Shown here: piece by piece, positions 7,135 to 27,762 of the stretch
Layout of the letters: the number at the start of each line of letters is the position of its first letter
Position numbering within the stretch: position 1 is the stretch's first letter
Origin: a phage
Strand: one strand, 5' to 3'
Sequence record: PZ715804.1
Length of the DNA stretch: 49,773 bases
The notes under the pieces: generated by a model
What the model was told of the DNA's origin: nothing
Database searches by the model: none
The model's input: the letters and a program-made list of their open reading frames with translations, nothing else
Program-made: the position numbers and the translations under genes

Positions 7135-7177
7135 TAGCACTTTTTGCTAAAAACGTTTACTGTATGCCGTGTATTAT
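7135..7177 (+). promoter_or_regulatory. motif-spacer-(-10) cassette upstream of helicase
   Basis: TAGCACTTTTTGCTAAAAAC, 22 nt spacer, TATTAT. Confidence 0.5.
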
Positions 7178-7215
7178 ATCGTAAACGATACAACGATTCA
7201 AAGGATTAAATAGCC

Positions 7216-9234
7216 GTGACAATGAACATTAAAAAGCAGATTGCATTACTTGGCGAGGACTATATAAAGCGAACTCAGGAGCGATTCACTGTCGGTGAGG
7301 TTGTTCCTTATCCGTACCAGGTTGTTGCTTATGCTGAGATCGCGAAACGCCTATCAAATTACGAGCATCCATTCTTTGTTAAAGCGTCAGTATCTGCGGG
7401 TAAGACCATCATTTTGGCTATGGTTGCAAAGCAGTGTCAGAAAATGGGCTTAAAAATGCTCGTTCTGGCTCGCCAGGGTGAGATTGTCGATCAGGATAGC
7501 GAGGAGATTGACAACTTTGGGGTAACTAACTCCATATTCTCAGCCTCATTAGGTATTAAGTCCTGCTATTTTCCTATCGTGGTAGGCTCAGAGGGTACTG
7601 TTGCAAATGGCCTCGACAATGAGCTTGCTGATTTCGTCCCGCAGGTAATTGGGATCGACGAGTGTCACCAGGTGGATTGGGAAGACCTTGCGCAAGCCAT
7701 TGAGGGCAAGGAAACAATGGAACAAATGAGGGGCGAGAAGGGAAAAATCATCATGGATGGAGATATTCCCCTGATTGGTAATGATGGAAAACCTTTGCTT
7801 GGGACTAAGCGCAGTCAGTACACGATCGTAATCATGGAAATGATGCGGCGCTGTAAAAAGGTTCACGGTCACGATCTCAGAATATTTGGTATGACTGGAT
7901 CTGAATTTCGTGGCGTAGTTCCTATTCTGGTAGAGAATCCGAAAGCATTGGGATTCTGGCGTGAGCGAGTAACTGATATCGACACAAACTATCTGATTGA
8001 GTTCGGTTCTGTTGTGCCGACAATATTCGGTTCAACAGACGGAGTTCATTACGATCTGGATAAGTTCAAGGCGTCGAGCGAGGACGGAGTGCAGGACTTT
8101 ACAGAGAAAGACATGAAGGCTATGGAAGATGAGATCCTTCATGATAAATCACTGACTCAGCGAATCATGCAAATGGTCGCCAAAAAGGCCGAAGAGCGTA
8201 ACGCTGTTCTCATTACATGTGCTGGGGTGCGTCACTGCAAAGAGGCGGCGGCGGCGCTTCCGCCAGGAAGCACCTATGCAATCATCACTGGCGATACTGA
8301 CACCAAAACGCGCAAGAAGATTCTTGATGATGTAAGGGCAGGAAAGATTAAATATACCTTTCAGGTCATGGCGCTCACGACTGGCGTTAACGTTCCAAAT
8401 TGGGATTTCAGCGTAATACTTCGCAAGATAGGGTCGCTCACGCTGTTGATTCAACTTTTGGGTAGGGGTATGCGTCTGCTTAAACCCTGGCAGGTTGCTG
8501 ATGGAATGGTTAAGCAGGACCATCTGGTATGGGATTTCGCAGGTACGATGGATGAGTTGGGTCAGCTTTATTTCGATCCGATACTTGAGCAAGCACAATT
8601 CCAAAAGCGCCTTGAAAACGGCAAAGATCCGAAAACATGTCCGAAATGCGGTTGCGTAAATAGCTTCTATGCTCGACGATGCGTTAATGTCATTGATGGT
8701 GAACGTTGCGATCATTTCTGGACTTCTCAGATTTGTGAGGACCAGGTTGACGAGCGCACCGGAAAAATCCTTGTTAAAGGATGCGGTGCAGAGAATGACG
8801 TTGTGGCCCGAGTCTGTCGTTGTTGTGATGTTTCGCTTGTCGATCCTAACCTGAAGTTATCCGGTAAGGCGTACACTAAGAATGACTGGTATGAAGTAAA
8901 GAATTTTGAGGTTACGCTAACCAAAAACCAGAAAGGCATAATATACAAATACACTCTTATTAACGATGATGGTGATGAGTTCAAGGCGTATGAAAAATTC
9001 TTCCCCGAGTCTGACTCTAAGATTTGCGGTACGATATGGAAAACTAAAGGTGTATTGCCACACGTATCGGATCCTAAAATGCGCCGATACTTTATCGGAA
9101 TGAAGAACGCCATCAAGATTTTGCAATACTCACATCATATTGCTCACCCGGTGCGCGTAACTCATCGTCGCAACCAGAAGAAAGAAGATATTATCTCACG
9201 AAAAGACTTTGGTATGGAGGATATCCCGGAATGA
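7216..9234 (+). CDS. DExH-box (SF2) DNA helicase with C-terminal Cys-rich zinc-binding region
   Basis: 672 aa; Walker A-like SAGKT; DECH box (IGIDECHQV); CPKCG...CRCC cluster; GTG start. Confidence 0.7.
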   Translation: MTMNIKKQIALLGEDYIKRTQERFTVGEVVPYPYQVVAYAEIAKRLSNYEHPFFVKASVSAGKTIILAMVAKQCQKMGLKMLVLARQGEIVDQDSEEIDNFGVTNSIFSASLGIKSCYFPIVVGSEGTVANGLDNELADFVPQVIGIDECHQVDWEDLAQAIEGKETMEQMRGEKGKIIMDGDIPLIGNDGKPLLGTKRSQYTIVIMEMMRRCKKVHGHDLRIFGMTGSEFRGVVPILVENPKALGFWRERVTDIDTNYLIEFGSVVPTIFGSTDGVHYDLDKFKASSEDGVQDFTEKDMKAMEDEILHDKSLTQRIMQMVAKKAEERNAVLITCAGVRHCKEAAAALPPGSTYAIITGDTDTKTRKKILDDVRAGKIKYTFQVMALTTGVNVPNWDFSVILRKIGSLTLLIQLLGRGMRLLKPWQVADGMVKQDHLVWDFAGTMDELGQLYFDPILEQAQFQKRLENGKDPKTCPKCGCVNSFYARRCVNVIDGERCDHFWTSQICEDQVDERTGKILVKGCGAENDVVARVCRCCDVSLVDPNLKLSGKAYTKNDWYEVKNFEVTLTKNQKGIIYKYTLINDDGDEFKAYEKFFPESDSKICGTIWKTKGVLPHVSDPKMRRYFIGMKNAIKILQYSHHIAHPVRVTHRRNQKKEDIISRKDFGMEDIPE

Positions 9235-9647
9235 TTACAGACAAAGGTGGTTATTTAGAATTTTACGAGAGAGATCCAAGCGACACTCGAAAGGAGGACG
9301 CTCATCAGGTGGATTGTGTATCCTGGCTGAAATACAATTTTCCTCACCTTCTATTTTGGCACACTGTCAATGAAGGTGAAAAAACAATCACATCGGCGCT
9401 CAGGGATGAGCAGGCCGGATTACTTAAAGGCGTGTCAGACTTCGTTATCCTGATTGGTGTTAACTCACGATACCCGTTTGCAGCAATCGAACTTAAGCGG
9501 GTTAATAAGTCAGGCAAAGGAAAGGCGTCACCAGTCAGCGACAAGCAAAGGGAATTTCTCCAAAAGGTCCGGGAGCGTGGCGGCTTCTCTGCCGTCGCAT
9601 ACGGATTCGGGCAATTCAAGATCGCAATTTACGAAATGATGAAATAG
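9231..9647 (+). CDS. VRR-NUC domain nuclease
   Basis: 138 aa; PD-(D/E)XK-type motifs VSDFVILIG ... AIELKRVN ... KQREFL; start overlaps helicase stop (ATGA). Confidence 0.6.
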   Translation: MITDKGGYLEFYERDPSDTRKEDAHQVDCVSWLKYNFPHLLFWHTVNEGEKTITSALRDEQAGLLKGVSDFVILIGVNSRYPFAAIELKRVNKSGKGKASPVSDKQREFLQKVRERGGFSAVAYGFGQFKIAIYEMMK

Positions 9648-9687
9648 CACTTTTTGTTAAAACTGCCGGGATGGAATCTGGCATTAT
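9645..9687 (+). promoter_or_regulatory. motif-spacer-(-10) cassette upstream of dam
   Basis: TAGCACTTTTTGTTAAAAC (TAG is the stop of the VRR-NUC gene), 22 nt spacer, CATTAT. Confidence 0.5.
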
Positions 9688-9714
9688 TATCTCACCAAAA
9701 CGAGAGGAATAAAA

Positions 9715-10428: not shown

Positions 10429-10676
10429 TGAGCGAAAAAATGGTTACTATTAAATTAACTGAGCAAGGTTTATGGCTTCTTTATCGCGCTACGTGCTGCG
10501 AGATTATGGAGCGAAACGGATTGACTAATGATGTTATTGGTTGCGATCTGTGGGAGTTCACTAGTTCTCTTGATATGTCTTTCGATGAGATAAAAAATGA
10601 ATACATAGAGAATTGGCCTTCAATCATACAGAGAGACGTAGAGGAACTTAAAGCTGATATGATCGTTCAGCACTAA
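10425..10676 (+). CDS. hypothetical protein
   Basis: 83 aa from ATG overlapping Dam stop (ATGATG) behind GAGGAAAG RBS; stop TAA lies inside a motif copy. Confidence 0.45.
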   Translation: MMSEKMVTIKLTEQGLWLLYRATCCEIMERNGLTNDVIGCDLWEFTSSLDMSFDEIKNEYIENWPSIIQRDVEELKADMIVQH

Positions 10677-10710
10677 TTGCTAAAACTACCCGGCGAAAGT
10701 CGGGTATAGT
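10669..10710 (+). promoter_or_regulatory. motif-spacer-(-10)-hairpin cassette
   Basis: AGCACTAATTGCTAAAAC, 22 nt spacer, TATAGT; imperfect hairpin CCCGGC...GTCGGG. Confidence 0.5.
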
Positions 10711-10742
10711 TATTTCATCGAGACGAAATGAGGAATCAAAAG

Positions 10743-10952: not shown

Positions 10953-11202
10953 AAGAGAGGTTTGGGATCACGCGAAGGAGTGCGGAATCTCAGACGATAT
11001 AGCACTAATAGCAAAATATTTCGATATAAAGGATGTTAGCATCATCTCAAACGGAAAGATTTCATTTATGGAAGATATGCCGAGAAAAATGCATAGAGTG
11101 CCAGCCACCCCATCACTTGAATTTTATCGTGAAGAAGGAAAGAGAATTGAGCGAGAACGAAAAACAGCAAAGAACAACAAGTCTTCCAGGCTTAAACATT
11201 AA
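10930..11202 (+). CDS. hypothetical protein (frame A of a possibly frameshifted gene)
   Basis: 90 aa ORF; overlaps the next ORF in another frame. Confidence 0.35.
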   Translation: MLIKKQGKREVWDHAKECGISDDIALIAKYFDIKDVSIISNGKISFMEDMPRKMHRVPATPSLEFYREEGKRIERERKTAKNNKSSRLKH

Positions 11203-11512: not shown

Positions 11513-12664
11513 ATGTCACAAGCTAAAATCACTACCGAACAACTTGTCGAAGAGCGCATGAACGGCCTAACACTTCGCGAGATCGCGGAAAAGTACGGTA
11601 TGCACATTCGAACTGTTGAAGCTCGCCACGCAAAGTTGGCAAAAGAAGGTCACTTCCACGGTAACGAGCATGTTGCTAAGAACGTACCGGAAGGATTCAT
11701 GGTAAAAGGCACATCAACGATGATTCGCGGCGATGGGACCGAGGTGGTGCGCTGGGTTAAGACCGATCAGGACCGTGAGAAGATTGCAGCAATGATGGAA
11801 GCGGCGCGTATTGCATTCTGTGAAGATCTGCCGCGAGCAAAGCCAACTGAGCTACTAACCTCACAAGGGCTTACGACAGCGATGGGTAAGCTGGCACTCT
11901 ATCCGGTATTCGATCTTCATATTGGCGCGCTTGCTCATAAGCATGAATGCGGAGAGAACTATTCTACCGATGTGGCGGAAAAAGTGCTGAGTGACTTCTT
12001 TAATTACGCGATCGATATTGCTCCGAACGCAGAGAAGGCTGTTCTGTTAATCGGCGGTGACTTCCTGCACTCTGACGGACTTGATGCAGTTACTCCGGCA
12101 AGCGGTCACGTTCTTGATCAGGATTCACGATATGCAAAATTGGTGCATGTAGCTATTCGATCTGTTCGTCGCGCTATCGACAAAATGCTGACTAAACACA
12201 AAGAGGTCGAAGTTCAGGTTGTCGAAGGAAACCACGACCAGGCCGGGATGATTTGGTTGCGCGCCGCAATGGCTGCATACTATGAAGACGAGCCGAGAGT
12301 ATTCGTTGACGTAAGCCCTATGGTTCTACATAAGACTCGCTGGGGAAATACTTTGCTTGGATATACTCACGGTCACACGATGAAAAAGGCAGAGACTCGA
12401 CTCGCAGCTATGGCAGCAGATTTCCGCGCAGATTTTGGTGAAAGCAAATACGTGTACACGCATAGCGGACACTGGCATCATCAGACAATCACTGAACACT
12501 CGTTAGGTATTGATGAGGTTCACGGGCAGTTAGGCGCGAAAGATGCATACGCCGCGCGAGGTGGGTGGCGCTCATATCGCCAGGCGGCGGTAATCGTTTA
12601 CGATAAACAGTTTGGTGAAATCGGTCGATTCATATATCGTCCAGAAATGACAGGATCGCACTAA
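11513..12664 (+). CDS. calcineurin-like metallophosphoesterase with N-terminal HTH-like region
   Basis: 383 aa; phosphoesterase motifs VFDLHIG, GGDFLHSDG, VEGNHDQ; N-terminal LTLREIAEKYGMHIRTV. Confidence 0.5.
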   Translation: MSQAKITTEQLVEERMNGLTLREIAEKYGMHIRTVEARHAKLAKEGHFHGNEHVAKNVPEGFMVKGTSTMIRGDGTEVVRWVKTDQDREKIAAMMEAARIAFCEDLPRAKPTELLTSQGLTTAMGKLALYPVFDLHIGALAHKHECGENYSTDVAEKVLSDFFNYAIDIAPNAEKAVLLIGGDFLHSDGLDAVTPASGHVLDQDSRYAKLVHVAIRSVRRAIDKMLTKHKEVEVQVVEGNHDQAGMIWLRAAMAAYYEDEPRVFVDVSPMVLHKTRWGNTLLGYTHGHTMKKAETRLAAMAADFRADFGESKYVYTHSGHWHHQTITEHSLGIDEVHGQLGAKDAYAARGGWRSYRQAAVIVYDKQFGEIGRFIYRPEMTGSH

Positions 12665-12698
12665 TCGCTAAAAACTCCCGAAGGGATTCGGGTATAGT
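12658..12698 (+). promoter_or_regulatory. motif-spacer-(-10)-hairpin cassette
   Basis: GCACTAATCGCTAAAAAC, 22 nt spacer, TATAGT; hairpin CCCGAA...TTCGGG. Confidence 0.5.
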
Positions 12699-12727
12699 GA
12701 CCACATAGAAAACAAAGAGGGTATTTC

Positions 12728-12904: not shown

Positions 12905-12926
12905 CAATATCATTCATAACCTTACG

Positions 12927-12956
12927 GGCTGGCATGGTTTACATGCTGGCCTTTTT
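12927..12956 (+). terminator. intrinsic terminator upstream of the lysis cassette
   Basis: Stem with G-U wobbles around CATG palindrome then TTTTT. Confidence 0.5.
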
Positions 12957-13725: not shown

Positions 13726-14126
13726 TGAAACTGAAGAAAACGTGCATTGCGATTGCAGTGGCTGTTGGCGTTATTTCCCTATCCGGTTGTTCGACGGCAT
13801 CTGCCCTGAGCGGTTTAATCGGATCTAAACCGGAAGTTACAGCACAAATCGGAGAGGAGAACACAAAGCAATTAGCAGGAGTAACCGCAAAATCCGAAGA
13901 TAAGCGAGATGTTAAAGTTGAGAAGTCCAATGTAGGAAAGATTGACTCTTCCTTGAAGAAGTCAATTGAAGTGTCAACCATTAAGGCTAACACGGTTAAC
14001 GCTGAAAGCATCACAGTAACAAAACCGGAAAACTGGTACGATGCTATCGTTGGCTGGATTCTCGTTTTTATCGGTCTATTGCTGGTTTATTTTTCACTCC
14101 GTAAGGACGAAAAAAAGGAGGCTTAG
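13722..14126 (+). CDS. unimolecular spanin (T1 gp11-type)
   Basis: 134 aa; N-terminal lipoprotein signal with lipobox LSGC and C-terminal transmembrane helix [15 protein letters not shown]. Confidence 0.75.
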
Positions 14127-14141
14127 CCTCCTTTGTTATTT
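14111..14141. terminator. bidirectional terminator between spanin gene and leftward genes
   Basis: Perfect palindrome AGGAGGC-TTA-GCCTCCT flanked by A-run and T-rich run. Confidence 0.7.
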
Positions 14142-16228: not shown

Positions 16229-16257
16229 CACAATAAACTCCTTAGTTGACGGCGTGA

Positions 16258-16302
16258 ATGATACACCGTCAATGGTACACGCGTTTTGCAAAAAGTGCTA
16301 TT
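16258..16302 (-). promoter_or_regulatory. motif-spacer-(-10)-hairpin cassette (minus strand) upstream of the DUF3987-like ATPase gene
   Basis: Minus-strand reading TAGCACTTTTTGCAAAAC, 22 nt spacer, TATCAT. Confidence 0.5.
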
Positions 16303-16721: not shown

Positions 16722-16801
16722 TGCGTTCGCTCCTGATTGGTTATCTTGAATAAGGTCACTTTATCAAATGACCTTACGGCAATATTAACAAATCGTGCTA
16801 T

Positions 16802-17239: not shown

Positions 17240-17455
17240 TTTAATTCCTTTGTTTCGTTTGGTGTGGGAGTAATATACCTCACTCCCTGGTGTGTGTCTT
17301 TAGCAATTTGTGCTATCAGTACTCAGAAATTACTTTGCACTCTTTGATTGTTCCTCCTAGCACTGATTTCTGCATCATTGCTTTTTGGCGACTATCGTAA
17401 ACGCGAACATTTTTTACGCTATTAAACTTGCCTGTATAAAAGGTGTGAACATAAA

Positions 17456-18357: not shown

Positions 18358-18388
18358 GATTCTTTCCTCATTTGCTGTTGATGGGATG

Positions 18389-18433
18389 ACTATACCAGCC
18401 CTCCCGCATTTTCGTTTAGCAAAAAGTGCTATT
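18389..18433 (-). promoter_or_regulatory. motif-spacer-(-10) cassette (minus strand)
   Basis: Minus-strand reading TAGCACTTTTTGCTAAAC, 22 nt spacer, TATAGT; then GAGGAAAG RBS. Confidence 0.5.
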
Positions 18434-18633: not shown

Positions 18634-18819
18634 TTAGAAGAAAGATACGTAGTTTGCAATACCTTTAGCGTCGTCGTTAGGCATTGCTTTGACAGCAAGA
18701 TCATAACCAGCCTCGACCTTCTGCTTTGCTGACTCTTCGTTGTATCCCCAAATAACCAGGATCTTAACTACGTTTTCTTTGTTCAGAACTTTAAGGTCTT
18801 TAGTGATGCGACGTGCCAT
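18634..18819 (-). CDS. hypothetical protein
   Basis: Start at internal Met (MARRITK) behind GAGGAA RBS; downstream of cassette 18853-18898. Confidence 0.45.
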   Translation of the reverse strand: MARRITKDLKVLNKENVVKILVIWGYNEESAKQKVEAGYDLAVKAMPNDDAKGIANYVSFF

Positions 18820-18852
18820 TTTGTTTTTCCTCAATCTCGTTTCGATGAGGTA

Positions 18853-18898
18853 ATTATGCCAAATCACACCGATCGAGTTTTAACAAAAAGTGCTATTT
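18853..18898 (-). promoter_or_regulatory. motif-spacer-(-10) cassette (minus strand)
   Basis: Minus-strand reading TAGCACTTTTTGTTAAAAC, 22 nt spacer, CATAAT; motif also encodes the Dcm-like C-terminus. Confidence 0.5.
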
Positions 18899-19584: not shown

Positions 19585-19616
19585 TGCAAATATCCTCTGA
19601 TTGGTTGATGTGATGA

Positions 19617-19662
19617 ATCATACCCTGCCAGCCTGACCAAATCGTTAGCAAAAAATGCTATT
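19617..19662 (-). promoter_or_regulatory. motif-spacer-(-10) cassette (minus strand) upstream of the Dcm-like gene
   Basis: Minus-strand reading TAGCATTTTTTGCTAAC, 22-23 nt spacer, TATGAT; then CCAATCAGAGGA RBS. Confidence 0.45.
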
Positions 19663-20276
19663 CCAATAGTTGCTCATTATTCCATCATCAATGGAATATC
19701 TGGAATAATTACGATCCCGATTGATCTCGAATGATGAAATGTGATTGTTGCATGGCGTGCAACTGTTGATGTGATTATTGCTTAGAATGCAATGATTGTG
19801 AGAGGGAGAATTTAGTGTTACCCGGTTCGCCTGGTGGTCATCTCCATTTTTAGCAAAACGTGCTATTCGTCTATGCGGTAGTTGTAATTGTCGTAATAGT
19901 TGTATACCATCAGGGGTGTTACAAAATGGCCCGAGAATCGATAGGCCTATAGATAATAAAATATCTATATATAATAATAAGATAGATAATATATATTTAT
20001 TTATTTATTATATTATATATTGGTATGTAATCGGCGTAATAGGTGCAACCGCATTTTTTGAGGGTGGCATATATTTCGTGATGCATAGTATAAAAAACAT
20101 ACTATTCCGCGCGCATAAATAGATGTGCTTGCTTTTATAGAAAAAGTCGGTTGCATCGGTTGCACTGGTTACAAAAATAAAAAATGCAGCTATAGACATT
20201 GACGCGCCTGACGTTGTAGCTGTAACATGTTTTTCGAAGTTGAAAGTTACACCCATAGACAACGAGGTATAGACAA
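19663..20276. promoter_or_regulatory. repeat-rich intergenic control region between divergent early blocks, with AT-rich core (about 19938-20018) and three ATAGACA words (20192, 20255, 20269)
   Basis: No convincing ORF; short palindromes (TTCCAT-N5-ATGGAA, GTTGCATGGCGTGCAAC), repeated TGATGTGATT words, about 80 bp of almost pure A/T. Confidence 0.5.
19847..19869 (-). promoter_or_regulatory. motif copy (minus orientation) with no downstream gene, at the edge of the AT-rich control region
   Basis: Plus-strand TTTTTAGCAAAACGTGCTATTCG. Confidence 0.35.
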
Positions 20277-21013: not shown

Positions 21014-21028
21014 TCGCTGAGCGGTAAA

Positions 21029-21071
21029 TAGCACTTTTTGTTAAAGCCCGGTCGAGAGGATCGGGTATTAT
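21029..21071 (+). promoter_or_regulatory. motif-spacer-(-10)-hairpin cassette
   Basis: TAGCACTTTTTGTTAAAG, 22 nt spacer, TATTAT. Confidence 0.5.
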
Positions 21072-21103
21072 CTTTTCATCGACACGATACAGAGGAAACG
21101 AAG

Positions 21104-21300: not shown

Positions 21301-21771
21301 ATGGCGACCATTACCGTATTCCTGGCTAAAGATGAGCTTGATGGCGAAATGTCATTCTTCGCGTTTGAGCACAAGACAGGATCGCACTGGCATACGTACA
21401 CTCACTACACGGTCATATCAATTGAGGCGTACGATGACGAACTGCTCACTGACAAACTGAGTAATTTCATTGAAGCCGTTAAAGCTAGCGGCGGCTGCGA
21501 GTGGAAGGAAGATCACGAAGTTATGCGAATGTTTGAGATGGTCAATCCGGTTCGCCTTGAGTCGTTCGAACTTGATGCTGATGTGACTATCAAGGTGAGA
21601 AAGTCGGGTGAGCTATTGCCAGGGATGCGTGTGCTGACTGGTTACTCGGGCCGTAAGGTGTGGCGCACTGTATCTAAGATTCGCCAGCGTTCGGCAACAT
21701 GCTATAGCGTATTCTTTGATGATGGTTGGAATATGATGTCAGGCAGTGAGGTAAAGTATCTCACCAAATAG
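21301..21771 (+). CDS. hypothetical protein
   Basis: 156 aa; stop TAG is the first triplet of a motif copy. Confidence 0.55.
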   Translation: MATITVFLAKDELDGEMSFFAFEHKTGSHWHTYTHYTVISIEAYDDELLTDKLSNFIEAVKASGGCEWKEDHEVMRMFEMVNPVRLESFELDADVTIKVRKSGELLPGMRVLTGYSGRKVWRTVSKIRQRSATCYSVFFDDGWNMMSGSEVKYLTK

Positions 21772-21817
21772 CACTAATTGTTAAAACAGGATCGGGGTAT
21801 CTTGCTATAGTTACCCC
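21769..21817 (+). promoter_or_regulatory. motif-spacer-(-10)-hairpin cassette
   Basis: TAGCACTAATTGTTAAAAC, 22 nt spacer, TATAGT in hairpin GGGGTA...TACCCC. Confidence 0.55.
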
Positions 21818-21849
21818 ATCAAAACGAGATACCAATCAGAGGATTCACC

Positions 21850-22080
21850 ATGTCAATCATCAAGAACCAACAAGCCATCGACTCAACCAGCCACAACCGC
21901 TTTGCTATTTTCATCACTCGCGACAACAAGCGATTTGCTGTCAGGGCCGTACCGGGTGGGTACAAAACATACATGGAAAATAACGGAAAGTGGGTGCGCT
22001 GCGAAAACCTTGCAAACTTCTTGGTATGGAATGGCGAGTTTCAAGGTCGTGATGATATCAGCACTTTAATTGAGGAATAA
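21850..22080 (+). CDS. hypothetical protein
   Basis: 76 aa; ACCAATCAGAGGA RBS context. Confidence 0.5.
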   Translation: MSIIKNQQAIDSTSHNRFAIFITRDNKRFAVRAVPGGYKTYMENNGKWVRCENLANFLVWNGEFQGRDDISTLIEE

Positions 22081-22600: not shown

Positions 22601-22792
22601 ATGGCTGATTTTATGCACCAAATGATTGCAGTATTCAAAGGTAGTGATGACCAGGAAGTGAAAGAGTGCTTTACCGTTGACAAGCCTTATAACGCGTCAC
22701 TAACCAGCTTCGGGAATATCTCATTGCTTGATGATAATGGCGATCCCTGGATATTCGATGAAGATACGGATTGCTTCGAAATTAAAGAATAG
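22601..22792 (+). CDS. small acidic hypothetical protein
   Basis: 63 aa; stop TAG is the first triplet of a motif copy. Confidence 0.45.
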   Translation: MADFMHQMIAVFKGSDDQEVKECFTVDKPYNASLTSFGNISLLDDNGDPWIFDEDTDCFEIKE

Positions 22793-22838
22793 CACTTTTT
22801 GTTAAAACGCGTTCATGGGGTTGCGATATAGTAACCCC
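22790..22838 (+). promoter_or_regulatory. motif-spacer-(-10)-hairpin cassette
   Basis: TAGCACTTTTTGTTAAAAC, 22 nt spacer, TATAGT in hairpin GGGGTT...AACCCC. Confidence 0.55.
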
Positions 22839-22863
22839 ATCAACAACGAAACGAGGATTTACC

Positions 22864-23081: not shown

Positions 23082-23570
23082 ATGAAAATTAAATTACTTT
23101 GCACTGGCGGTTACAAAGGATTTACTCGCGACCTGGAAGCCGACCCAATTATCGTTGACGCGGTGAAGTGCGATGATAGCCTGGGAGGCTACCGCGTCAA
23201 GGTCGATGACCTGGTTAAAGCTGGCGTGTACGATCTGGATTACGGCTTGCGAGTTATCCCTGAAGTTGGCCCGGCAGACTTTAACGAGAAAGACGGAACG
23301 ATGTTCTTTTTTGATTGGGAAGTTCAAGAGAACGTCAAGCCTCGTAAGGTTCGACTTCTCAACAATGGCGGCTACCCGATGAGACCAGGTTATGAGAATC
23401 GCACGTTCCCAGTTATTGTGGACTTCACCGAAATCACTAACAACCTTGTCTACGTTAGCCATGAGCAACTTAAGGCTGTTGGATTTGTTGGTGGCATGCA
23501 TAAAGAAGCGCTTTGCTTCGTTCGAGAAGAAATGCACGGTTACTATTCTGAGTGTGAGCTAGTCTACTAA
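23082..23570 (+). CDS. hypothetical protein (N-terminal MKxxKC-type domain)
   Basis: Start at internal Met (MKIKLLCTGGYKGF) behind GAGGA RBS. Confidence 0.5.
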   Translation: MKIKLLCTGGYKGFTRDLEADPIIVDAVKCDDSLGGYRVKVDDLVKAGVYDLDYGLRVIPEVGPADFNEKDGTMFFFDWEVQENVKPRKVRLLNNGGYPMRPGYENRTFPVIVDFTEITNNLVYVSHEQLKAVGFVGGMHKEALCFVREEMHGYYSECELVY

Positions 23571-23615
23571 GCACGAATTGTTAAAAGGGGATTTGGCCTG
23601 ACTGGTATAATCCCC
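23570..23615 (+). promoter_or_regulatory. motif-spacer-(-10)-hairpin cassette
   Basis: AGCACGAATTGTTAAAAG, 22 nt spacer, TATAAT in hairpin GGGGATT...AATCCCC. Confidence 0.55.
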
Positions 23616-23641
23616 ACATAAACCACTAAGAGGAAGTCATT

Positions 23642-24127: not shown

Positions 24128-24276
24128 TGGCTGCATGGGTTTTGATTATCTTGATGAGTACCGGGCCGGATCACGTATACATGGAAAGCCAACAATCATG
24201 CAATAAGGCACGGGAAGTTATCGCAGAGAATAAGCCGTTCGGGTACGAAGTAAAAACAATGTGCGTTAAACGATAG
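24127..24276 (+). CDS. small hypothetical protein
   Basis: 49 aa, not in track; start overlaps previous stop; stop TAG begins a motif copy. Confidence 0.3.
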   Translation: MAAWVLIILMSTGPDHVYMESQQSCNKAREVIAENKPFGYEVKTMCVKR

Positions 24277-24320
24277 CACGAATTGCTAAACCTTCCGAAA
24301 GGCCATTTGTTATAATGGCC
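24274..24320 (+). promoter_or_regulatory. motif-spacer-(-10)-hairpin cassette
   Basis: TAGCACGAATTGCTAAAC, 22 nt spacer, TATAAT in hairpin GGCCAT...ATGGCC. Confidence 0.55.
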
Positions 24321-24356
24321 TTATTGAAGCAAGGCAACCAATCAGAGGAATAGGAT

Positions 24357-24560
24357 ATGGCTACACGACTCACTCAATGGCAGATTTACGACAAGGCATC
24401 GCGCCTACGTTAATCACTTCGTGGACTGACGCCGAATGACCGAATGGAGATTATCGGGCACGCATTGCACGAACTCACGCCGCCGGACGTAACCTATCAC
24501 TCATGCGGAAACAAGTTTTGGAACGTGACATTCGAGGTAAAGAAAGATGAGCAAAACTCA
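24357..24560 (+). pseudogene. ORF interrupted by a single in-frame TAA (18 codons, stop at 24411-24413, then 49 further sense codons in the same frame)
   Basis: ATG behind cassette 24274-24320 and ACCAATCAGAGGA RBS; reading frame continues open after the TAA to 24560. Confidence 0.3.
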
Positions 24561-24834
24561 TAAGTTAAAAATCGCCCCGGTACATTTCATCGGAGTAATG
24601 AACGGAACCAAAACGGCAGAGTTCCGCATCAATGACCGCAACTTCCAGCCTGGCGATATCCTGGAGCTATGCGAGTTCGATCGTGACGAGTTTACCGGGT
24701 GGGAAGTACACGCCAGGGTATCAGATGTTACCGATGTGACTCCGTACATCAATCGCTGGTATGACGACAAAGAATGTGACTTCACGCAATACGTGATGTT
24801 ATCAATCAAGCCTTACAGGAAGATTAGACCATGA
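24547..24834 (+). CDS. ASCH-like / DUF3850-like small protein
   Basis: 95 aa; pattern HKLKIAPVHFIGVMNGTKTAEFRINDRNFQPGDIL recalled as DUF3850-type. Confidence 0.5.
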   Translation: MSKTHKLKIAPVHFIGVMNGTKTAEFRINDRNFQPGDILELCEFDRDEFTGWEVHARVSDVTDVTPYINRWYDDKECDFTQYVMLSIKPYRKIRP

Positions 24835-25522: not shown

Positions 25523-25633
25523 ATGCCAGACTTTTCTAACTGGAATAACGAGCCGCCATCATTTCAGGAGTTGCTATTCTGCCTCCTGGTTCTGACAATA
25601 TCTCTTAAGGGTGTTTTATGGCTACTATCATGA
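25523..25633 (+). CDS. small hydrophobic peptide
   Basis: 36 aa, not in track; ATG behind terminator-like hairpin plus GGAG RBS. Confidence 0.3.
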   Translation: MPDFSNWNNEPPSFQELLFCLLVLTISLKGVLWLLS

Positions 25634-25836
25634 CAACGGAAGATGCAGCGCGTGACGCAGTGGAAGGGATGCGCCCAAATACCTCCAGAATCGCACACTA
25701 CTACAATTTTGACGTGTCGGCAGTGCAACTGGTCCATGAAATTTTAAGGCTTCCACAAGTCGATTCAGCGCGCGTGGTGACGTGCTTAAAAAATTATTTT
25801 TGCATCACTATTAAAACGAATAGCACGAATTGCTAA
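25618..25836 (+). CDS. hypothetical protein
   Basis: 72 aa; C-terminus ...TNSTNC* read through the repeated motif. Confidence 0.4.
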   Translation: MATIMTTEDAARDAVEGMRPNTSRIAHYYNFDVSAVQLVHEILRLPQVDSARVVTCLKNYFCITIKTNSTNC

Positions 25837-25868
25837 AACCTATCAAGGGGAATGCGCTATGATTCCCC
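25821..25868 (+). promoter_or_regulatory. motif-spacer-(-10)-hairpin cassette
   Basis: TAGCACGAATTGCTAAAAC, 22 nt spacer, TATGAT in hairpin GGGGAAT...ATTCCCC. Confidence 0.55.
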
Positions 25869-25893
25869 TACACCAAAAAACGAGGGAACACTC

Positions 25894-26340
25894 ATGAAAC
25901 ATTTGATTTGCATTGAAACGCCTAACGATGAATACACCCTGCACGGCATCGGAATGTTCAAAGGTCACTACATGACAGCAAGCATTTATGATGCGCGTCG
26001 CGGCGATGGCGATCTGATGATTAACTCAAAAGAGGTTAATCCGTACATCATGCAGAATCTTGGAAATAACGAATATATGGCCTACGGCTGCAATGCGGTG
26101 TACAAGAATATCAAGATCCGCAAGCGCGTCGTGCGAGCATTCAAGAAGATTGCAATGAAATACTGGAAAATGAGCAAGAAAGATGCCGGACGTTGGGCGC
26201 GCAACGTTGCAGATTCATACTTCTATCGTAACGGCGAATCCTGCTACTTTCTGATCGATGAGCTTATGGAAAACTACGGTGGCGACTTCAGTCAGGGTAG
26301 CTTTGACGCCTGGGCTGACTACGAGGTCGATTACTGGTAA
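25894..26340 (+). CDS. hypothetical protein
   Basis: Start at internal Met (MKHLICIET) behind GAGGGAA RBS, downstream of cassette 25821-25868. Confidence 0.5.
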   Translation: MKHLICIETPNDEYTLHGIGMFKGHYMTASIYDARRGDGDLMINSKEVNPYIMQNLGNNEYMAYGCNAVYKNIKIRKRVVRAFKKIAMKYWKMSKKDAGRWARNVADSYFYRNGESCYFLIDELMENYGGDFSQGSFDAWADYEVDYW

Positions 26341-26387
26341 TAGCACGAATTGCTAAAACTTGCTCAAGGGCATTTGATAGAATGCCC
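26341..26387 (+). promoter_or_regulatory. motif-spacer-(-10)-hairpin cassette
   Basis: TAGCACGAATTGCTAAAAC, 22 nt spacer, TAGAAT in hairpin GGGCAT...ATGCCC. Confidence 0.55.
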
Positions 26388-26423
26388 TTCGTTGAGTTAA
26401 GCAACCAATCAGAGGAATAAATC

Positions 26424-27035
26424 ATGGATAAAATTACCATTTGGGGCCAGACAATCAACCTGTTTCTCGGCACGCGCCGCGTAGCAATCTTTGACTTTGA
26501 TGGAACACTTAGCGATGGATCTGGTCGACTTCACCTGCTACCTACAAAGGATTTGCACTTAACTGAAAGCTGGTCCGAGTTTAACCGCGCGGCAATATTT
26601 GACAACCCTATCCAAAGCACGATCGATGTGATGAACTCTATGTATGCCGCTGGTCATCATGTGATCATTTTAACCGGGCGAAGTGATGAGGTGCGTTACG
26701 CATCTGAGTTGTGGCTTAAGCATCACGGCGCTCGATATGATTACCTGATTATGCGACCATACACCGATAACCGGAAAGACACAGTAATGAAAGAAGAGGC
26801 GGTGCGCGCGATCGGCATTGATAACATTCTGGCGGCCTGGGATGACTCACCGCAAATTATTCCATTATTCCGCTCACTTGGAATAACCACTTACGCTGTA
26901 GTTGACTATGGCGATAAAGTTCACGATCATTTAAAATCTCACGGGGTAGATGAGGTTTGCAATCATGAACCATCTGAGCCGCTACCGCCATTTGGTGAGA
27001 AAATTTGCATTAAGTGCAAGGAGTTATTGAAGTGA
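26424..27035 (+). CDS. HAD-superfamily phosphatase
   Basis: 203 aa; motif I DFDGTLSDG; ACCAATCAGAGGA RBS context. Confidence 0.65.
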   Translation: MDKITIWGQTINLFLGTRRVAIFDFDGTLSDGSGRLHLLPTKDLHLTESWSEFNRAAIFDNPIQSTIDVMNSMYAAGHHVIILTGRSDEVRYASELWLKHHGARYDYLIMRPYTDNRKDTVMKEEAVRAIGIDNILAAWDDSPQIIPLFRSLGITTYAVVDYGDKVHDHLKSHGVDEVCNHEPSEPLPPFGEKICIKCKELLK

Positions 27036-27143
27036 ACCTATACGAATTTATTGCAGCACATCCGGTACTAACAGTTATCATTCTGTTAATCATAAACTCC
27101 ACCATCATCAATGTGGCGAAATTATTTTTAGGGAGATACTGAC

Positions 27144-27716
27144 ATGAAAACAGCTATCATTTTAAACGGTGCGCCTGGCGCGGGAAAAGACACTATAGGG
27201 TGCATCCTGGCTGACACTTACGATCATGTAGCGCTACGCAGCTTTAAAGCTCCAATGTTTGAGATTGCCCGAGCAATCCTGGGTGAGACTAATTTTGAGT
27301 ATTTCATGTTCTTGTATGAGGACCGTCGCTATAAAGAAGAGCCAGCATCAATCCTGAACGGTAAAAGCCCGCGCCAGTTTATGATCTGGATTAGCGAGGA
27401 GGTTATCAAGCCGCAGTTCGGAAATCGCTTCTTCGGTATGCGAGCGGAAAGCAAGGTGAAAGAGTCTCACTCCCTTTCGGTATTTACTGACGGTGGATTC
27501 AAAGACGAAATCTTGCAGATGATTGAAGGTGAAATCCAGGTCAAGCTATGTCGAATCCATCGCAACGGTTGCAACTTTGACAACGACAGTCGCGACTACA
27601 TCTATCTTGACGATATGATCGGGGTCAACGGTTATCAGGAATGTGACTTCTTCTCTGTCGAAGGTCATCCAGAAATTACCGCTCAGCACATAGCCGCCAC
27701 GTTCATCAACAAATAG
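27144..27716 (+). CDS. P-loop kinase (nucleotide or polynucleotide kinase-like)
   Basis: 190 aa; Walker A GAPGAGKDT at N-terminus; stop TAG begins a motif copy. Confidence 0.6.
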   Translation: MKTAIILNGAPGAGKDTIGCILADTYDHVALRSFKAPMFEIARAILGETNFEYFMFLYEDRRYKEEPASILNGKSPRQFMIWISEEVIKPQFGNRFFGMRAESKVKESHSLSVFTDGGFKDEILQMIEGEIQVKLCRIHRNGCNFDNDSRDYIYLDDMIGVNGYQECDFFSVEGHPEITAQHIAATFINK

Positions 27717-27762
27717 CACGAATTGCTAAAACGTCGGTGGGGTGACTTGATATAGTTACCTC
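27714..27762 (+). promoter_or_regulatory. motif-spacer-(-10)-hairpin cassette
   Basis: TAGCACGAATTGCTAAAAC, 22 nt spacer, TATAGT in imperfect hairpin. Confidence 0.55.

What the first reader, a model, noticed from the sequence alone, without database searches (positions are those of the whole stretch)
7135..27762. Genome-wide family of motif-spacer-hairpin cassettes bracketing small early ORFs
A conserved motif (consensus aaTAGCACnaaTTGyTAAAAC, with a -35-like TTGCTA/TTGTTA inside it) is followed, after a strictly conserved 22 nt spacer, by a -10-like hexamer (TATAGT/TATAAT/TATGAT/TAGAAT) that usually sits in the loop or 3' arm of a short G/C-clamped hairpin, then an RBS and start codon. I count 12 plus-strand cassettes (7135, 9645, 10669, 12658, 21029, 21769, 22790, 23570, 24274, 25821, 26341, 27714), 4 minus-strand ones (16258-16302, 18389-18433, 18853-18898, 19617-19662) and a variant at 2814-2857. 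The 22 nt spacing is too long for a canonical sigma70 promoter (16-19 nt), so this may be a non-canonical or regulated promoter or a factor-binding site. The motif also supplies the stop codon of the upstream gene (TAG in aaTAGcac, or the TAA in ttgcTAAaac/ttgtTAAaac), and three unrelated proteins end with motif-encoded tails (Dcm-like ...ANSTFC*, HTH ...TNSIFS*, ORF 25618 ...TNSTNC*). Each small ORF is therefore a self-contained unit bounded by identical sequences, which resembles the promoter-stem-loop (PeSL) cassettes proposed to shuffle genes in T4-type phages; I do not know of this being described for T1-like phages.
Basis: partly seen in the sequence, partly recalled or inferred. Interest (0 to 1): 0.8.

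Follow-up and report, generated by a model that had tools for sequence, protein, structure and literature searches.

The report
Marbox promoter cassettes of T1-like phage
The repeated motif in this T1-like phage is a near-perfect copy of the E. coli "marbox", placed exactly where the host stress activators MarA/SoxS/Rob switch promoters on, so about twenty early and DNA-metabolism promoters look wired to a host antibiotic-stress regulator, and these promoter-hairpin units also mark where related phages gain, lose or swap genes.

Summary
I found 5 more cassettes and 5 "orphan" motif copies.

The window is a Tunavirus (T1-like, Drexlerviridae). The repeat was already published for phage TLS in 2024 and noted for T1, Rtp and Rogue1, with its function left open.

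My main result is that the motif is the mar/sox/rob box.
- The published 20-mer consensus AYNGCACNNWNNRYYAAAYN gives 21 hits against 1.08 expected.
- The MarA ChIP-seq consensus GCACTAATTGCTAAA is present exactly once and with one mismatch at 8 sites.
- The box sits 18 nt upstream of a -10 hexamer, facing forward, with no -35. The E. coli micF class II promoter has the same layout.

This explains the puzzling 22-nt spacer. TTGCTA is part of the activator site, not a -35.

The architecture recurs in T1, TLS, Rtp and Klebsiella phage Sin4, none of which encodes a MarA homologue. It also recurs in Pantoea myophage AAM37, which does encode one.

The hairpins are frequent but not universal, and look like terminators or attenuators at the RNA level. 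Gene gain, loss and replacement boundaries between Tunavirus genomes cluster at the cassettes, as with T4-type PeSL cassettes.

The parts
2807..2857 (+). Cassette upstream of the Erf-like recombinase gene (start 2848). The marbox ACGGCACAAATAGCTAAACA matches the 20-mer consensus with 0 mismatches. It is followed by 17 nt, TGtTATAAT, and a hairpin flanking the -10.
6625..6685 (-). Cassette between the Cro-like HTH regulator gene and the primase gene. The marbox variant ATAGCATTTTTAGTTAAAAC supplies the regulator's stop codon (tail TNSIFS*). It is followed by 18 nt and TAACAT, which sits in the loop of a strong hairpin followed by TTTTT. This looks like an intrinsic terminator and a promoter in one unit.
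   Evidence: orthologous hairpin plus T-run with unrelated stem sequences at TLS 35240(-) and Rtp 34831(-)
7134..7184 (+). Cassette driving the helicase gene (GTG at 7216), divergent from the HTH regulator gene. Marbox GTAGCACTTTTTGCTAAAAA, 18 nt, TATTAT.
9644..9694 (+). Cassette upstream of the Dam methylase gene (9715). Marbox, 18 nt, TGgCATTAT. The spacer hairpin TGCCGG...CTGGCA is flagged as terminator-like.
10667..10717 (+). Cassette whose 15-mer core is an exact match to the MarA ChIP-seq consensus GCACTAATTGCTAAA. It is followed by 18 nt and TATAGT. The spacer hairpin TACCCGGCGAAAGTCGGGTA is flagged as terminator-like.
10999..11049 (+). Weak, intragenic marbox copy with TAGCAT 18 nt downstream. 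Whether it acts as a promoter is uncertain.
12655..12705 (+). Cassette upstream of a 58-aa ORF ahead of the lysis genes. At this exact point T1 carries an extra HNH gene flanked by two marbox copies.
16251..16301 (-). Cassette upstream of the DUF3987-type ATPase gene. T1 has an HNH gene inserted 1-3 bp from this marbox.
16751..16801 (-). Cassette (ATAGCACGATTTGTTAATAT, 18 nt, TGaTAAAGT) with a 12-bp hairpin flanking the -10. It lies upstream of the 138-aa ORF at 16305-16721.
17265..17316 (-). Cassette with a 19-nt gap before TATATT, upstream of the 74-aa ORF at 17015-17239.
18382..18432 (-). Cassette whose marbox has 0 mismatches to the consensus. It forms the left boundary of a segment (18436-18834) that is replaced by unrelated sequence in phage UP30.
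18846..18896 (-). Cassette whose marbox encodes the C-terminus of the methylase-like ORF 18880-19584 (tail ANSTFC*). It forms the right boundary of the replaced segment.
19610..19661 (-). Degenerate cassette (ATAGCATTTTTTGCTAACGA, 19 nt, TATGAT) upstream of the ORF starting at 19584.
21028..21078 (+). First cassette of the rightward early arm. The spacer hairpin followed by TATTATCTTTT is flagged as terminator-like, and the authors of the related phage Chapo annotated a terminator in the equivalent gene gap.
21768..21818 (+). Cassette with hairpin GGGGTA/TACCCC around TGcTATAGT. Homology with T1 begins 1 bp from this marbox.
22789..22839 (+). Cassette with a 10-bp hairpin around TATAGT. A 68-aa ORF present here but absent from JMPW1 and UP30 starts directly after it.
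23568..23618 (+). Cassette with a diverged box (TAAGCACGAATTGTTAAAAG), 18 nt, then TGgTATAAT.
24273..24323 (+). Cassette whose marbox has 0 mismatches to the consensus, followed by TGtTATAAT in a hairpin loop. A 741-bp insertion relative to T1 begins 49 bp after the box.
25820..25870 (+). Cassette whose marbox encodes the tail TNSTNC* of ORF 25618-25836.
26340..26390 (+). Cassette upstream of the polynucleotide kinase/phosphatase gene (26424).
27713..27763 (+). Last cassette of the rightward arm. It has a 15-bp hairpin (-24.9 kcal/mol, z -6.5) around TGaTATAGT.
40037..40087 (-). Marbox, 18 nt, then TGaTAGGAT, pointing antisense into the major tail protein gene. Conserved in T1 at 18850(-). Role unknown.
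5593..5612 (+). Orphan marbox (0 mismatches) with no -10 at the class II distance.
19847..19866 (-). Orphan marbox ATAGCACGTTTTGCTAAAAA in the non-coding region between the divergent early arms. It is 16/20 identical to the mar operon's own marbox.
29544..29563 (+). Orphan marbox (0 mismatches) directly against the ribosome-binding site of the small terminase gene (ATG 29578).
36305..36324 (-). Orphan marbox on the minus strand, just upstream of the major capsid gene.
46256..46275 (+). Orphan marbox ending 2 nt before the start codon of the tail fibre gene (46278).

Best explanation
Each cassette is a sigma-70 promoter of the class II mar/sox/rob type.

**Proposed layout.**
- A 20-bp marbox (ATAGCAC-nnn-TTGYTAAAAC) occupies about -50 to -31 in the forward orientation and takes the place of a -35 element.
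- Exactly 18 bp downstream lies a -10 hexamer, usually preceded by G at -14.
- A conserved A follows at the predicted +1.
- A ribosome-binding site and start codon then follow, with the start codon 62-85 nt from the first base of the box.

**Proposed mechanism (inferred).** A monomeric MarA-family activator binds the box and recruits RNA polymerase, as it does at E. coli micF. T1-like phages encode no detectable homologue, so the activator would be the host's Rob, MarA or SoxS (RamA in Klebsiella). About 20 early and DNA-metabolism transcription units would then be driven or boosted by a host stress regulator.

**Hairpins (inferred, lower confidence).** The GC-rich inverted repeat in or around the spacer and -10 forms in read-through RNA from the upstream unit. 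There it acts as a terminator, attenuator or 3'-end stabiliser, as was shown experimentally for PeSL stem-loops in T4-type phages.

**Gene exchange (inferred).** Every unit starts with the same roughly 60 bp, and the upstream gene's stop codon sits inside it. The cassettes therefore act as portable homology at which genes are gained, lost or replaced.

**Shown here:** the sequence identity to the marbox, the geometry, the conservation across genera, the absence of a phage homologue, and the clustering of breakpoints at the cassettes.

**Inferred:** binding, activation, which protein is involved, and what the hairpin does.
For: **1. Match to consensus sequences taken from the literature, not derived from the phage.**
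- AYNGCACNNWNNRYYAAAYN (PMC2064960) gives 21 hits at up to 1 mismatch against 1.08 expected. Five hits are perfect, and nearly all are the cassette motif.
- The MarA ChIP-seq consensus gcactaattgctaaa (PMC5684230) gives 25 hits at up to 3 mismatches against 1.97 expected. One is exact, at 10670, and 8 have one mismatch.

**2. Geometry.**
- The E. coli micF promoter reads ACAGCACTGAATGTCAAAAC, 18 nt, TAGAAT, 7 nt, then +1. The phage has the same 18-nt gap and the same orientation.
- Published class II sites are forward-oriented, centred near -41, and lack a -35 (PMC10268841; PMC8811837). The phage box is centred at about -40.5.
- The base frequencies of 91 aligned cassettes show G at -14 in 85% and A at the 7th nt after the -10 in 79%.

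**3. Few ordinary promoters.** Canonical -35/-10 promoter matches are not enriched across 9-29 kb: 32 found against 38.8 expected. [quoted passage not shown]

**4. Conservation.** T1, TLS, Rtp and Sin4 each have 13-17 sites at offset 18, against about 0.4 in shuffles of the window, T1, TLS and Rtp. They represent three subfamilies plus the genus Webervirus.

**5. A related phage with its own MarA-like protein.**
- Pantoea myophage AAM37 shares the capsid protein at 47% identity and has annotated replication/recombination genes of the same kinds. It has the same marbox, 18 nt, -10 promoters, with 10 sites.
- It encodes a 136-aa stand-alone AraC-family protein with Pfam HTH_18 at 1.8e-14. The best solved-structure match is MarA 1BL0, and RamA is among the top five.

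**6. No MarA homologue in Drexlerviridae.**
- tblastn with MarA found nothing (best E 11).
- tblastn with the AAM37 protein against 50,697 phage records found only Dibbivirus and unrelated phages.
- A MarA-family HMM scored E 0.7 or worse on 8 Drexlerviridae genomes, while the positive control scored 1.6e-8.
- Pfam searches of 20 early ORFs found no AraC-type domain.

**7. The conservation is asymmetric.** C7 (95%) and T11 (96%) are not complementary to each other. G4 is 100% conserved while its would-be partner C14 is only 62%, which matches the Y at that position in the marbox consensus. This fits a monomer rather than a symmetric dimer.

**8. Hairpins.**
- Most z-scores are -2 to -6.5.
- The sense strand folds more stably than the antisense strand in 49 cassettes against 22, Wilcoxon p = 1.3e-4.
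- Cassettes at the same gene junction (regulator-primase) in this window, TLS and Rtp keep a hairpin plus T-run while the stem sequences are unrelated.
- PeSL stem-loops in the same positions were shown to terminate transcription (PMC2839356).

**9. Breakpoints.** 33 of 195 homology breakpoints lie within 10 bp of a marbox, against 3.3 expected. Several indels and replacements are bounded by cassettes at both ends.
Against: - Nothing here shows binding, activation or transcript 5' ends.
- Rob is described as mostly sequestered and inactive in unstressed cells (PMC5684230; PMC10268841). From general knowledge, MarA and SoxS are scarce and unstable, yet T1 grows fast on laboratory strains without inducers.
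- G at -14 together with a good -10 could make these promoters largely independent of an activator.
- The box contains a 5-bp pseudo-dyad (TAGCA-N5-TGCTA). The phage encodes a Cro-like HTH protein, and its gene is divergent from a cassette.
- In the pairwise alignments, several residues of the AAM37 protein that align to MarA's first HTH differ from MarA's. From memory, this is the recognition helix. It is therefore not shown that the protein reads the same DNA.
- Two AAM37 cassettes lie upstream of its AraC-family gene, so there is no clean regulatory cascade.
- Five marbox copies in the window have no -10 at the right distance, and two cassette-like copies point antisense in the late region. 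The model does not explain these.
- 17 of 91 cassettes lack a convincing hairpin, and only three of the terminator-like sites in 9-29 kb fall in cassettes.
Confidence: 0.65

Rival explanations
1. A phage-encoded protein, not a host factor, binds the motif. Candidates are the conserved Cro-like HTH regulator (6669-7121, minus strand) or an unrecognised early protein. The protein would activate or repress the cassette promoters, and the resemblance to the marbox would be convergent.
For: - The box contains a 5-bp pseudo-dyad (TAGCA-N5-TGCTA) with half-sites 10 bp apart.
- The regulator has a weak P22_Cro-type HTH match. Genes annotated as this regulator lie next to the primase gene in T1, TLS, Rtp and Sin4.
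- The regulator gene is divergent from the helicase cassette at 7134.
- Relying on its own factor would spare the phage dependence on a dispensable host protein.
Against: - The conservation is asymmetric. C7 and T11 are not complementary, A17 and A18 have no mirror partner, and G4 is 100% conserved against C14 at 62%.
- The motif equals the independently derived MarA optimum at 15 of 15 positions, and it sits at exactly the micF class II distance and orientation.
- The related phage with the same promoters carries a MarA homologue.
- No marbox was found in the AAM37 scan between its helicase gene and its regulator gene (coordinates).
Confidence: 0.15
2. The cassettes are constitutive extended -10 promoters that need no activator. 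The conserved upstream block is kept mainly as a UP-like or enhancer element, or as homology for recombination.
For: - G at -14 in 85% of cassettes, TG in 43%, and near-consensus -10 hexamers.
- Breakpoints cluster at the motif.
- The TLS authors proposed UP-like or enhancer roles.
Against: - As I recall, UP elements are A/T-rich and lie upstream of the -35 position. This box has an invariant GCAC and overlaps the -35 position.
- A purely recombinational repeat would not need a fixed 18-bp distance to the -10, nor would it need to match a host transcription-factor consensus.
- The spacing and the base-by-base pattern are kept across genera whose flanking sequence has diverged.
Confidence: 0.1
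3. The motif is an orientation-dependent repressor or roadblock site of the "stoperator" type, as suggested in the TLS paper. Alternatively it is an RNA element (motif plus hairpin) that acts in processing or antitermination.
For: - The copies are asymmetric, lie between genes, and point in the direction of transcription.
- Orphan copies sit directly on the ribosome-binding sites of the small terminase and tail fibre genes.
- The Y at position 14 would keep a G-C or G-U pair in a small UAGCA/UGYUA stem (sequence inspection).
- The downstream hairpins fold better on the sense strand.
Against: - As I recall, these phages are virulent, and no annotated integrase or CI-type repressor is seen beyond the Cro-like HTH and one doubtful "integrase" note in CLB_P3.
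- The fixed 18-bp distance to a -10, the G at -14 and the A at +1 mark a promoter.
- Rfam gives no match.
- The would-be 5-bp stem is weak, and the conserved C7, T11 and A17-18 lie outside it.
Confidence: 0.07

Closest known systems
Class II mar/sox/rob regulon promoters of Enterobacteriaceae (archetype: E. coli micF)
   Same: - A 20-bp asymmetric marbox with GCAC and AAA elements.
- Forward orientation, centred near -41, overlapping and replacing the -35.
- 18 bp to the -10, checked directly on micF.
- A near-perfect match to both published consensus sequences.
   Different: - Here the box is carried by a virulent phage at about 20 promoters in 50 kb.
- The phage boxes are much closer to the consensus than host sites are to each other. 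Phage box types share 14-15 of 20 bases with micF or mar, while micF and mar share only 10 of 20.
- The box is fused to a hairpin and to the upstream gene's stop codon.
- Binding by MarA, SoxS or Rob is untested.
PeSL (promoter-early stem-loop) cassettes of T4-type phages RB49 and phi1 (Arbiol et al. 2010, PMC2839356)
   Same: - Repeated intergenic units made of the upstream stop codon, a promoter, a stem-loop between or over the promoter elements, a ribosome-binding site and a start codon.
- They flank small genes of unknown function in variable regions.
- Indels and replacements between close relatives end at the cassettes.
   Different: - PeSLs carry a consensus sigma-70 -35 with an A/T-rich upstream region. 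These cassettes have a marbox instead and no -35.
- PeSL terminator activity and mini-circles were shown experimentally. Neither has been tested here.
The 21-nt direct repeat aaATAGCACnnnTTGnTAAAA of phage TLS (PMC11447400, 2024)
   Same: It is the same element: same consensus, same orientation, about 76 nt upstream of start codons, with the same A, T and G subtypes.
   Different: That paper left the function open, suggesting a stoperator, an enhancer site or a UP-like element. It did not report the fixed 18-nt link to a -10, the hairpins, or the identity with the marbox.
T4 middle promoters (MotA box plus extended -10, sigma appropriation)
   Same: An activator box replaces the -35 in front of a good, often extended, -10 (from general knowledge).
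   Different: - T4 encodes its own activator and co-activator (MotA and AsiA).
- The MotA box is centred near -30 and has a different sequence.
- No MotA or AsiA-like gene was noticed here.

Membership tests
Class II mar/sox/rob (marbox) promoter | A 20-bp asymmetric site matching AYNGCACNNWNNRYYAAAYN, with the GCAC and AAA recognition elements | tested here: met
   21 hits at up to 1 mismatch against 1.08 expected, 5 of them perfect. GCA is invariant, C7 is 95% conserved and A16-18 are 95-98% conserved across 91 cassettes. The ChIP-seq consensus GCACTAATTGCTAAA is present exactly or with 1 mismatch at 9 sites.
Class II mar/sox/rob (marbox) promoter | Forward orientation, with the site overlapping the -35 position and centred near -41 | tested here: met
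   The box ends 18 bp before the -10 in 19 window sites, which places its centre at about -40.5. micF has the same orientation and the same 18-bp gap. Literature positions are given. The transcription start is predicted, not mapped.
Class II mar/sox/rob (marbox) promoter | No recognisable -35 hexamer, and an ordinary sigma-70 -10 | tested here: met
   At 17-bp spacing the hexamer reads AAAACn, which matches TTGACA at 2-3 of 6 positions (sequence). The -10 hexamers are TATAGT, TATAAT, TATTAT and similar.
Class II mar/sox/rob (marbox) promoter | Bound and activated by MarA, SoxS or Rob | not testable with these tools
   Needs gel-shift or footprinting assays, in vitro transcription, and infection of a marA soxS rob mutant.
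PeSL-type mobile regulatory cassette | A repeated intergenic unit made of a promoter and a stem-loop, lying between the upstream stop codon and the downstream ribosome-binding site and start codon | tested here: met
   The stem-loop lies in the spacer or over the -10, as described for PeSLs. About one cassette in five lacks a clear stem.
PeSL-type mobile regulatory cassette | A strong consensus sigma-70 promoter (-35 and -10) with an A/T-rich upstream region | tested here: not met
   There is no -35. A marbox occupies that position.
PeSL-type mobile regulatory cassette | Recombination between cassettes causes insertions, deletions and replacements between close relatives | tested here: inconclusive
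   33 of 195 breakpoints lie within 10 bp of a marbox against 3.3 expected. Events bounded by cassettes at both ends include three with a 63-65 bp overlapping alignment. Two confounders remain: the bias of breakpoints towards intergenic DNA, and BLAST alignments extending into a conserved island. For T1 alone, by my manual tally, 6 of 16 cassette junctions carry a breakpoint against 5 of 33 other junctions.
PeSL-type mobile regulatory cassette | The stem-loop terminates or attenuates upstream transcription, and mini-circles form | not testable with these tools
   The support is indirect. The sense strand folds more stably, and a few stems carry T-runs.
Stoperator-type repressor sites (mycobacteriophage L5) | Asymmetric sites bound by a phage repressor in a temperate phage, with no fixed relation to promoter elements | tested here: not met
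   The distance to a -10 is fixed at 18 bp. No repressor or integrase module appears in the annotations of relatives.

The most novel reading that the evidence does not exclude
T1-like phages (Drexlerviridae) have handed promoter recognition for their early and DNA-metabolism genes to the host's MarA/SoxS/Rob/RamA stress activators. They do this by carrying about 20 near-optimal class II marboxes. Phage gene expression would then follow the host's antibiotic, bile-salt or oxidative-stress state. Multidrug-resistant strains that overexpress marA or ramA would be better hosts, not worse ones. The related Dibbivirus lineage would have become self-sufficient by capturing a MarA homologue. The same promoter units would double as recombination modules that shuffle accessory genes.
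Probability: 0.45. Interest if true: 0.9.

Novelty: new variant of a known kind. Interest (0 to 1): 0.75.

Why it matters
T1 is a classic phage whose promoters have never been explained. [quoted passage not shown]

Reading the repeat as a class II marbox gives a concrete mechanism that can be tested at once. It would be a clear case of a virulent phage using a host stress regulon activator across its genome.

It also links phage susceptibility to the mar/ram/sox/rob antibiotic-resistance response. That matters for therapy with E. coli and Klebsiella Drexlerviridae, through possible phage-antibiotic synergy and effects of bile salts or salicylate.

It provides compact, portable, inducible promoter-terminator units for synthetic biology.

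It also extends the PeSL idea, in which regulatory cassettes serve as gene-shuffling modules, to a second and unrelated phage family.

Tried and rejected
- **TTGCTA/TTGTTA as a -35 with a 22-nt spacer.** Rejected. These bases are positions 11-16 of the marbox.
- **A symmetric operator for a dimeric HTH protein.** Considered because of the TAGCA-N5-TGCTA dyad. Judged unlikely because the conservation is asymmetric.
- **A phage-encoded MarA homologue in T1-like phages.** Searched by tblastn, a family HMM with a working positive control, and Pfam on 20 early ORFs. None was found.
- **A known RNA family.** Rfam at gathering thresholds gave 0 hits in the window.
- **Cassette hairpins as canonical intrinsic terminators.** Only three cassettes in 9-29 kb pass a terminator-like scan, and most stems are followed by A/C-rich sequence rather than T-rich sequence. 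This cannot be the general explanation, although the regulator-primase cassette clearly has a T-run.
- **Orphan or backward boxes as class I sites for nearby plus-strand genes** (36324, 40087, 5593). The geometry would put the transcription start inside or beyond the start codon, so this was rejected by sequence arithmetic.
- **A cascade in AAM37, with the AraC gene upstream of all marbox promoters.** Not supported. Two cassettes precede the gene.
- **Literature searches linking the phage repeat or Drexlerviridae to marbox, MarA, SoxS or Rob.** Nothing was found beyond the TLS description. The T1 (2004) and Rtp (2006) genome papers are not in the held library (for Rtp).
- **Supplementary tables of the MarA screen.** These gave no usable class II spacing data.

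Full report
**What the window is.** The 49.8-kb window is a complete or nearly complete Tunavirus genome (T1-like, Drexlerviridae). It is about 91% identical to phage Chapo over the 10 kb tested, up to 98% identical to JMPW1 over 20 kb, and 85-95% identical to T1. The gene order is a circular permutation of the T1 record:
- recombination and replication genes at 0-14 kb;
- a leftward arm of small ORFs at 14-19.6 kb;
- a non-coding gap;
- a rightward arm of small ORFs at 20.3-29.5 kb;
- the structural genes from 29.6 kb to the end.

**Checking the observation.**
- The motif is real. TAGCACNAATTGYTAAAAC with up to 3 mismatches gives 20 matches against 0.06 expected.
- The distance to the -10-like hexamer is almost invariant. 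Measured from the end of the 20-mer defined below, the offsets peak sharply at 18 nt. That gives 19 sites in the window, 16 in T1, 16 in TLS and 17 in Rtp, against about 0.4 in shuffles.
- In most cassettes the upstream ORF's stop codon lies inside the motif or within 5-6 nt upstream of it. It is TAG at box positions 2-4, TAA at 8-10, or TAA at 15-17.
- Start codons lie 62-85 nt after the first base of the box.

**Prior description.** The repeat is not new. The 2024 re-annotation of phage TLS reports a 21-nt direct repeat, aaATAGCACnnnTTGnTAAAA, at 21 places. [quoted passage not shown] The authors say similar repeats occur in T1, Rtp and Rogue1. [quoted passage not shown]

**What the motif is.** It is the mar/sox/rob box.
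- I took the 20-mer consensus AYNGCACNNWNNRYYAAAYN from the literature (PMC2064960), not from the phage. It gives 21 hits at up to 1 mismatch against 1.08 expected. Five are perfect and nearly all are cassette motifs.
- The consensus derived from MarA ChIP-seq, gcactaattgctaaa (PMC5684230), is present exactly at 10670 and with one mismatch at eight further sites. In all there are 25 hits at up to 3 mismatches against 1.97 expected.
- The phage box types share 14-15 of 20 bases with the micF and mar marboxes. Those two host sites share only 10 of 20 with each other. The phage therefore carries the consensus itself.

**Why the spacer is 22 nt.** I retrieved the E. coli micF promoter. It reads ACAGCACTGAATGTCAAAAC, then 18 nt, then TAGAAT, then 7 nt, then the first base of MicF RNA. 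The phage has the same gap and the same orientation.

micF is the structural archetype of class II activation by RamA, Rob and SoxS. In that class the marbox faces forward, is centred near -41, overlaps the -35 position, and no usable -35 hexamer is present (PMC8811837; PMC10268841; PMC12052159).

In 91 aligned cassettes from six genomes:
- box positions 1-7 and 11-18 are nearly invariant;
- G at -14, the extended -10 position, is present in 85%, and TG in 43%;
- the -10 is well formed;
- the 7th base after it is A in 79%, as expected for a start site.

TTGCTA is therefore part of the activator site, not a -35. Canonical -35/-10 matches are not enriched in the early region (32 against 38.8 expected).

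**Who binds it.** This is inferred, not shown. The conservation is asymmetric. C7 and T11 are both about 95% conserved yet are not complementary. G4 is invariant while its would-be partner at position 14 is C in only 62%, which matches the Y of the marbox consensus. This fits a monomeric MarA-type protein better than a symmetric dimer.

T1-like phages encode no detectable MarA homologue:
- tblastn with MarA found nothing. The MarA sequence I used was confirmed as 100% identical to annotated MarA.
- A MarA-family HMM scored E 0.7 or worse on all ORFs of eight Drexlerviridae genomes. It found the positive control at 1.6e-8.
- Pfam searches of 20 early ORFs found no AraC-type domain.

The Pantoea myophage AAM37 (genus Dibbivirus) provides the key comparison. 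Its capsid protein is 47% identical to the window's, and its annotated replication and recombination genes are of the same kinds. It has the same marbox, 18 nt, -10 promoters, about ten of them. It also encodes a 136-aa stand-alone AraC-family protein. That protein matches Pfam HTH_18 at 1.8e-14, its best solved-structure match is MarA (1BL0), and RamA is also in the top five. Among 50,697 phage records, close homologues of this protein occur only in Dibbivirus.

The simplest reading is that a MarA-family protein reads this promoter class. Dibbiviruses would bring their own, and T1-like phages would use the host's Rob, MarA or SoxS (RamA in Klebsiella, whose Webervirus Sin4 has 13 such promoters).

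Caveats:
- Rob is reported to be largely sequestered in unstressed cells.
- MarA and SoxS are scarce.
- The extended -10 may give substantial basal activity.
- The first HTH of the AAM37 protein differs from MarA's in the pairwise alignment.
- Two AAM37 cassettes lie upstream of its AraC-family gene.

**The hairpins.** About four cassettes in five have an inverted repeat with more structure than shuffled sequence, but its position varies.
- In 57 of 91 cassettes the stem's 3' arm follows the -10, which typically leaves the -10 in the loop.
- In 14 the stem lies wholly in the spacer.
- In 3 the stem ends inside the -10.
- In 17 there is no convincing stem.
- Stem sequences differ completely between cassettes while pairing is kept.
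- At the regulator-primase junction, this window, TLS and Rtp have unrelated stems that each enclose the -10 and are followed by a T-run.
- The sense strand folds more stably than the antisense strand in 49 cassettes against 22 (p = 1.3e-4). This points to an RNA formed in read-through transcripts rather than a DNA cruciform.
- Only three of the terminator-like sites in 9-29 kb fall in cassettes.

In T4-type phages, PeSL stem-loops in exactly these positions were shown by reporter assays to terminate transcription (PMC2839356). I therefore read the hairpins as terminators, attenuators or 3'-end stabilisers that insulate each unit. My confidence in this is moderate.

**Are the cassettes gene-shuffling modules?** I compared five Tunavirus genomes all-against-all.
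- 33 of 195 clustered homology breakpoints lie within 10 bp of a marbox, against 3.3 expected. The maximum over 2,000 randomisations was 12. Within 60 bp the count is 57 against 11.5 expected.
- Events bounded by cassettes at both ends include a roughly 960-990 bp block present in JMPW1 and UP30 but absent from CLB_P3, and a 400-bp block in CLB_P3. In each case the alignments overlap by 63-65 bp, the signature of recombination between two cassette copies.
- Other examples are an HNH gene in T1 flanked by two marboxes where the window has one cassette (12655), and the replacement of 18436-18834 by unrelated sequence in UP30.
The cassettes are most of the intergenic DNA in these regions, and each is a conserved island into which alignments extend. 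For T1 alone, by my manual tally, breakpoints fall at 6 of 16 cassette junctions against 5 of 33 other junctions. That is suggestive but not decisive.

**Comparison with known systems and novelty.** The element works like a class II mar/sox/rob promoter. It meets every sequence-level criterion of that class; binding and activation remain untested. It also resembles a PeSL cassette but fails the PeSL criterion of a consensus -35.

The repeat itself is already published. I did not find any of the following in the searchable literature:
- its identity with the marbox;
- the fixed class II geometry;
- the Dibbivirus MarA homologue that accompanies the same promoters;
- the breakpoint analysis.

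The T1 (2004) and Rtp (2006) genome papers could not be read. I rate this a new variant of a known kind.

**Verdict.** The best explanation has a confidence of about 0.65. It is that these are class II marbox promoters, probably served by host Rob, MarA or SoxS, fused to insulating hairpins, and that they double as recombination modules.

Noticed in passing
window 40037-40087 (-); T1 L003 18850 (-): A well-formed cassette (marbox, 18 nt, TGaTAGGAT) lies between the major tail protein gene and the next late gene. It points antisense into the tail gene and is conserved in T1. At the equivalent junction Rtp has a sense-oriented cassette (16303+) driving an extra gene. It may be an early antisense promoter or a relic of an inversion.
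   Followed up: partly
window 29544-29563 (+) and 46256-46275 (+): Two near-perfect marboxes sit directly on the translation start regions of the small terminase gene (14 nt before the ATG) and the tail fibre gene (2 nt before the ATG). Neither has a -10 at the class II distance. Their role is unexplained. Possibilities are a roadblock, translational coupling, or a relic.
   Followed up: partly
window 36305-36324 (-), 5593-5612 (+), 19847-19866 (-): Three further orphan marboxes. One lies just upstream of the major capsid gene on the opposite strand. One lies between the tail fibre and primase genes. One lies in the non-coding gap between the divergent early arms, and that copy is the closest to the mar operon's own box. 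Class I geometry does not fit any of them.
   Followed up: partly
L010 (Pantoea phage AAM37) 36758-37168: A stand-alone MarA-like AraC-family gene (136 aa) in a myophage that shares the capsid protein (47% identity) with T1-like phages, has annotated replication/recombination genes of the same kinds, and uses the same marbox promoters. Close homologues occur only in Dibbivirus (AAM37, PSKM, DIBBI). DIBBI is recorded as a Xanthomonas phage.
   Followed up: partly
window 24357-24566 (+): The ORF served by cassette 24273 has an in-frame stop at codon 19 (MATRLTQWQIYDKASRLR*...). Chapo and JMPW1 annotate an intact 68-aa protein here. This could be a pseudogene, a sequencing error, or a recoding site.
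   Followed up: partly
window 19930-20060: A very A/T-rich stretch with repeated TAGATA/TATCTATA and (ATAA)n units lies in the roughly 650-bp non-coding gap between the leftward and rightward early arms. It carries two weak sigma-70-like matches (19950, 19983), and a further match, TTGACG-18-TAACAT, lies at 20199. It may hold immediate-early promoters, or pac or origin functions.
   Followed up: no
window, about +1 to +30 of many cassettes (e.g. 21812-21850, 27757-27790): Two recurring leader types follow the -10. One is TACCCCATCGAAACGA-like, also seen in TLS, Rtp and Sin4. The other is ...AACCAATCAGAGGA... around the ribosome-binding site. Cassette families seem to have spread as whole units including the 5' leader.
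   Followed up: no
T1 L003 42014-42496 and 46071-46598; window 12649-12691 and 16302-16307: HNH homing-endonuclease genes present in T1 but absent from the window are inserted within a few bp of marbox cassettes. One carries its own second cassette copy.
   Followed up: partly
window 14114-14134: A perfect bidirectional terminator-like hairpin (AAAGGAGGCTTAGCCTCCTTT) with T-rich sequence on both strands. It lies where the rightward lysis genes meet the leftward early arm.
   Followed up: no
window 12926-12952: A strong terminator-like hairpin (11 bp, then TTTTGCG) lies between the 58-aa ORF served by cassette 12655 and the holin gene. The lysis genes are therefore probably not simply co-transcribed from that cassette.
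   Followed up: no
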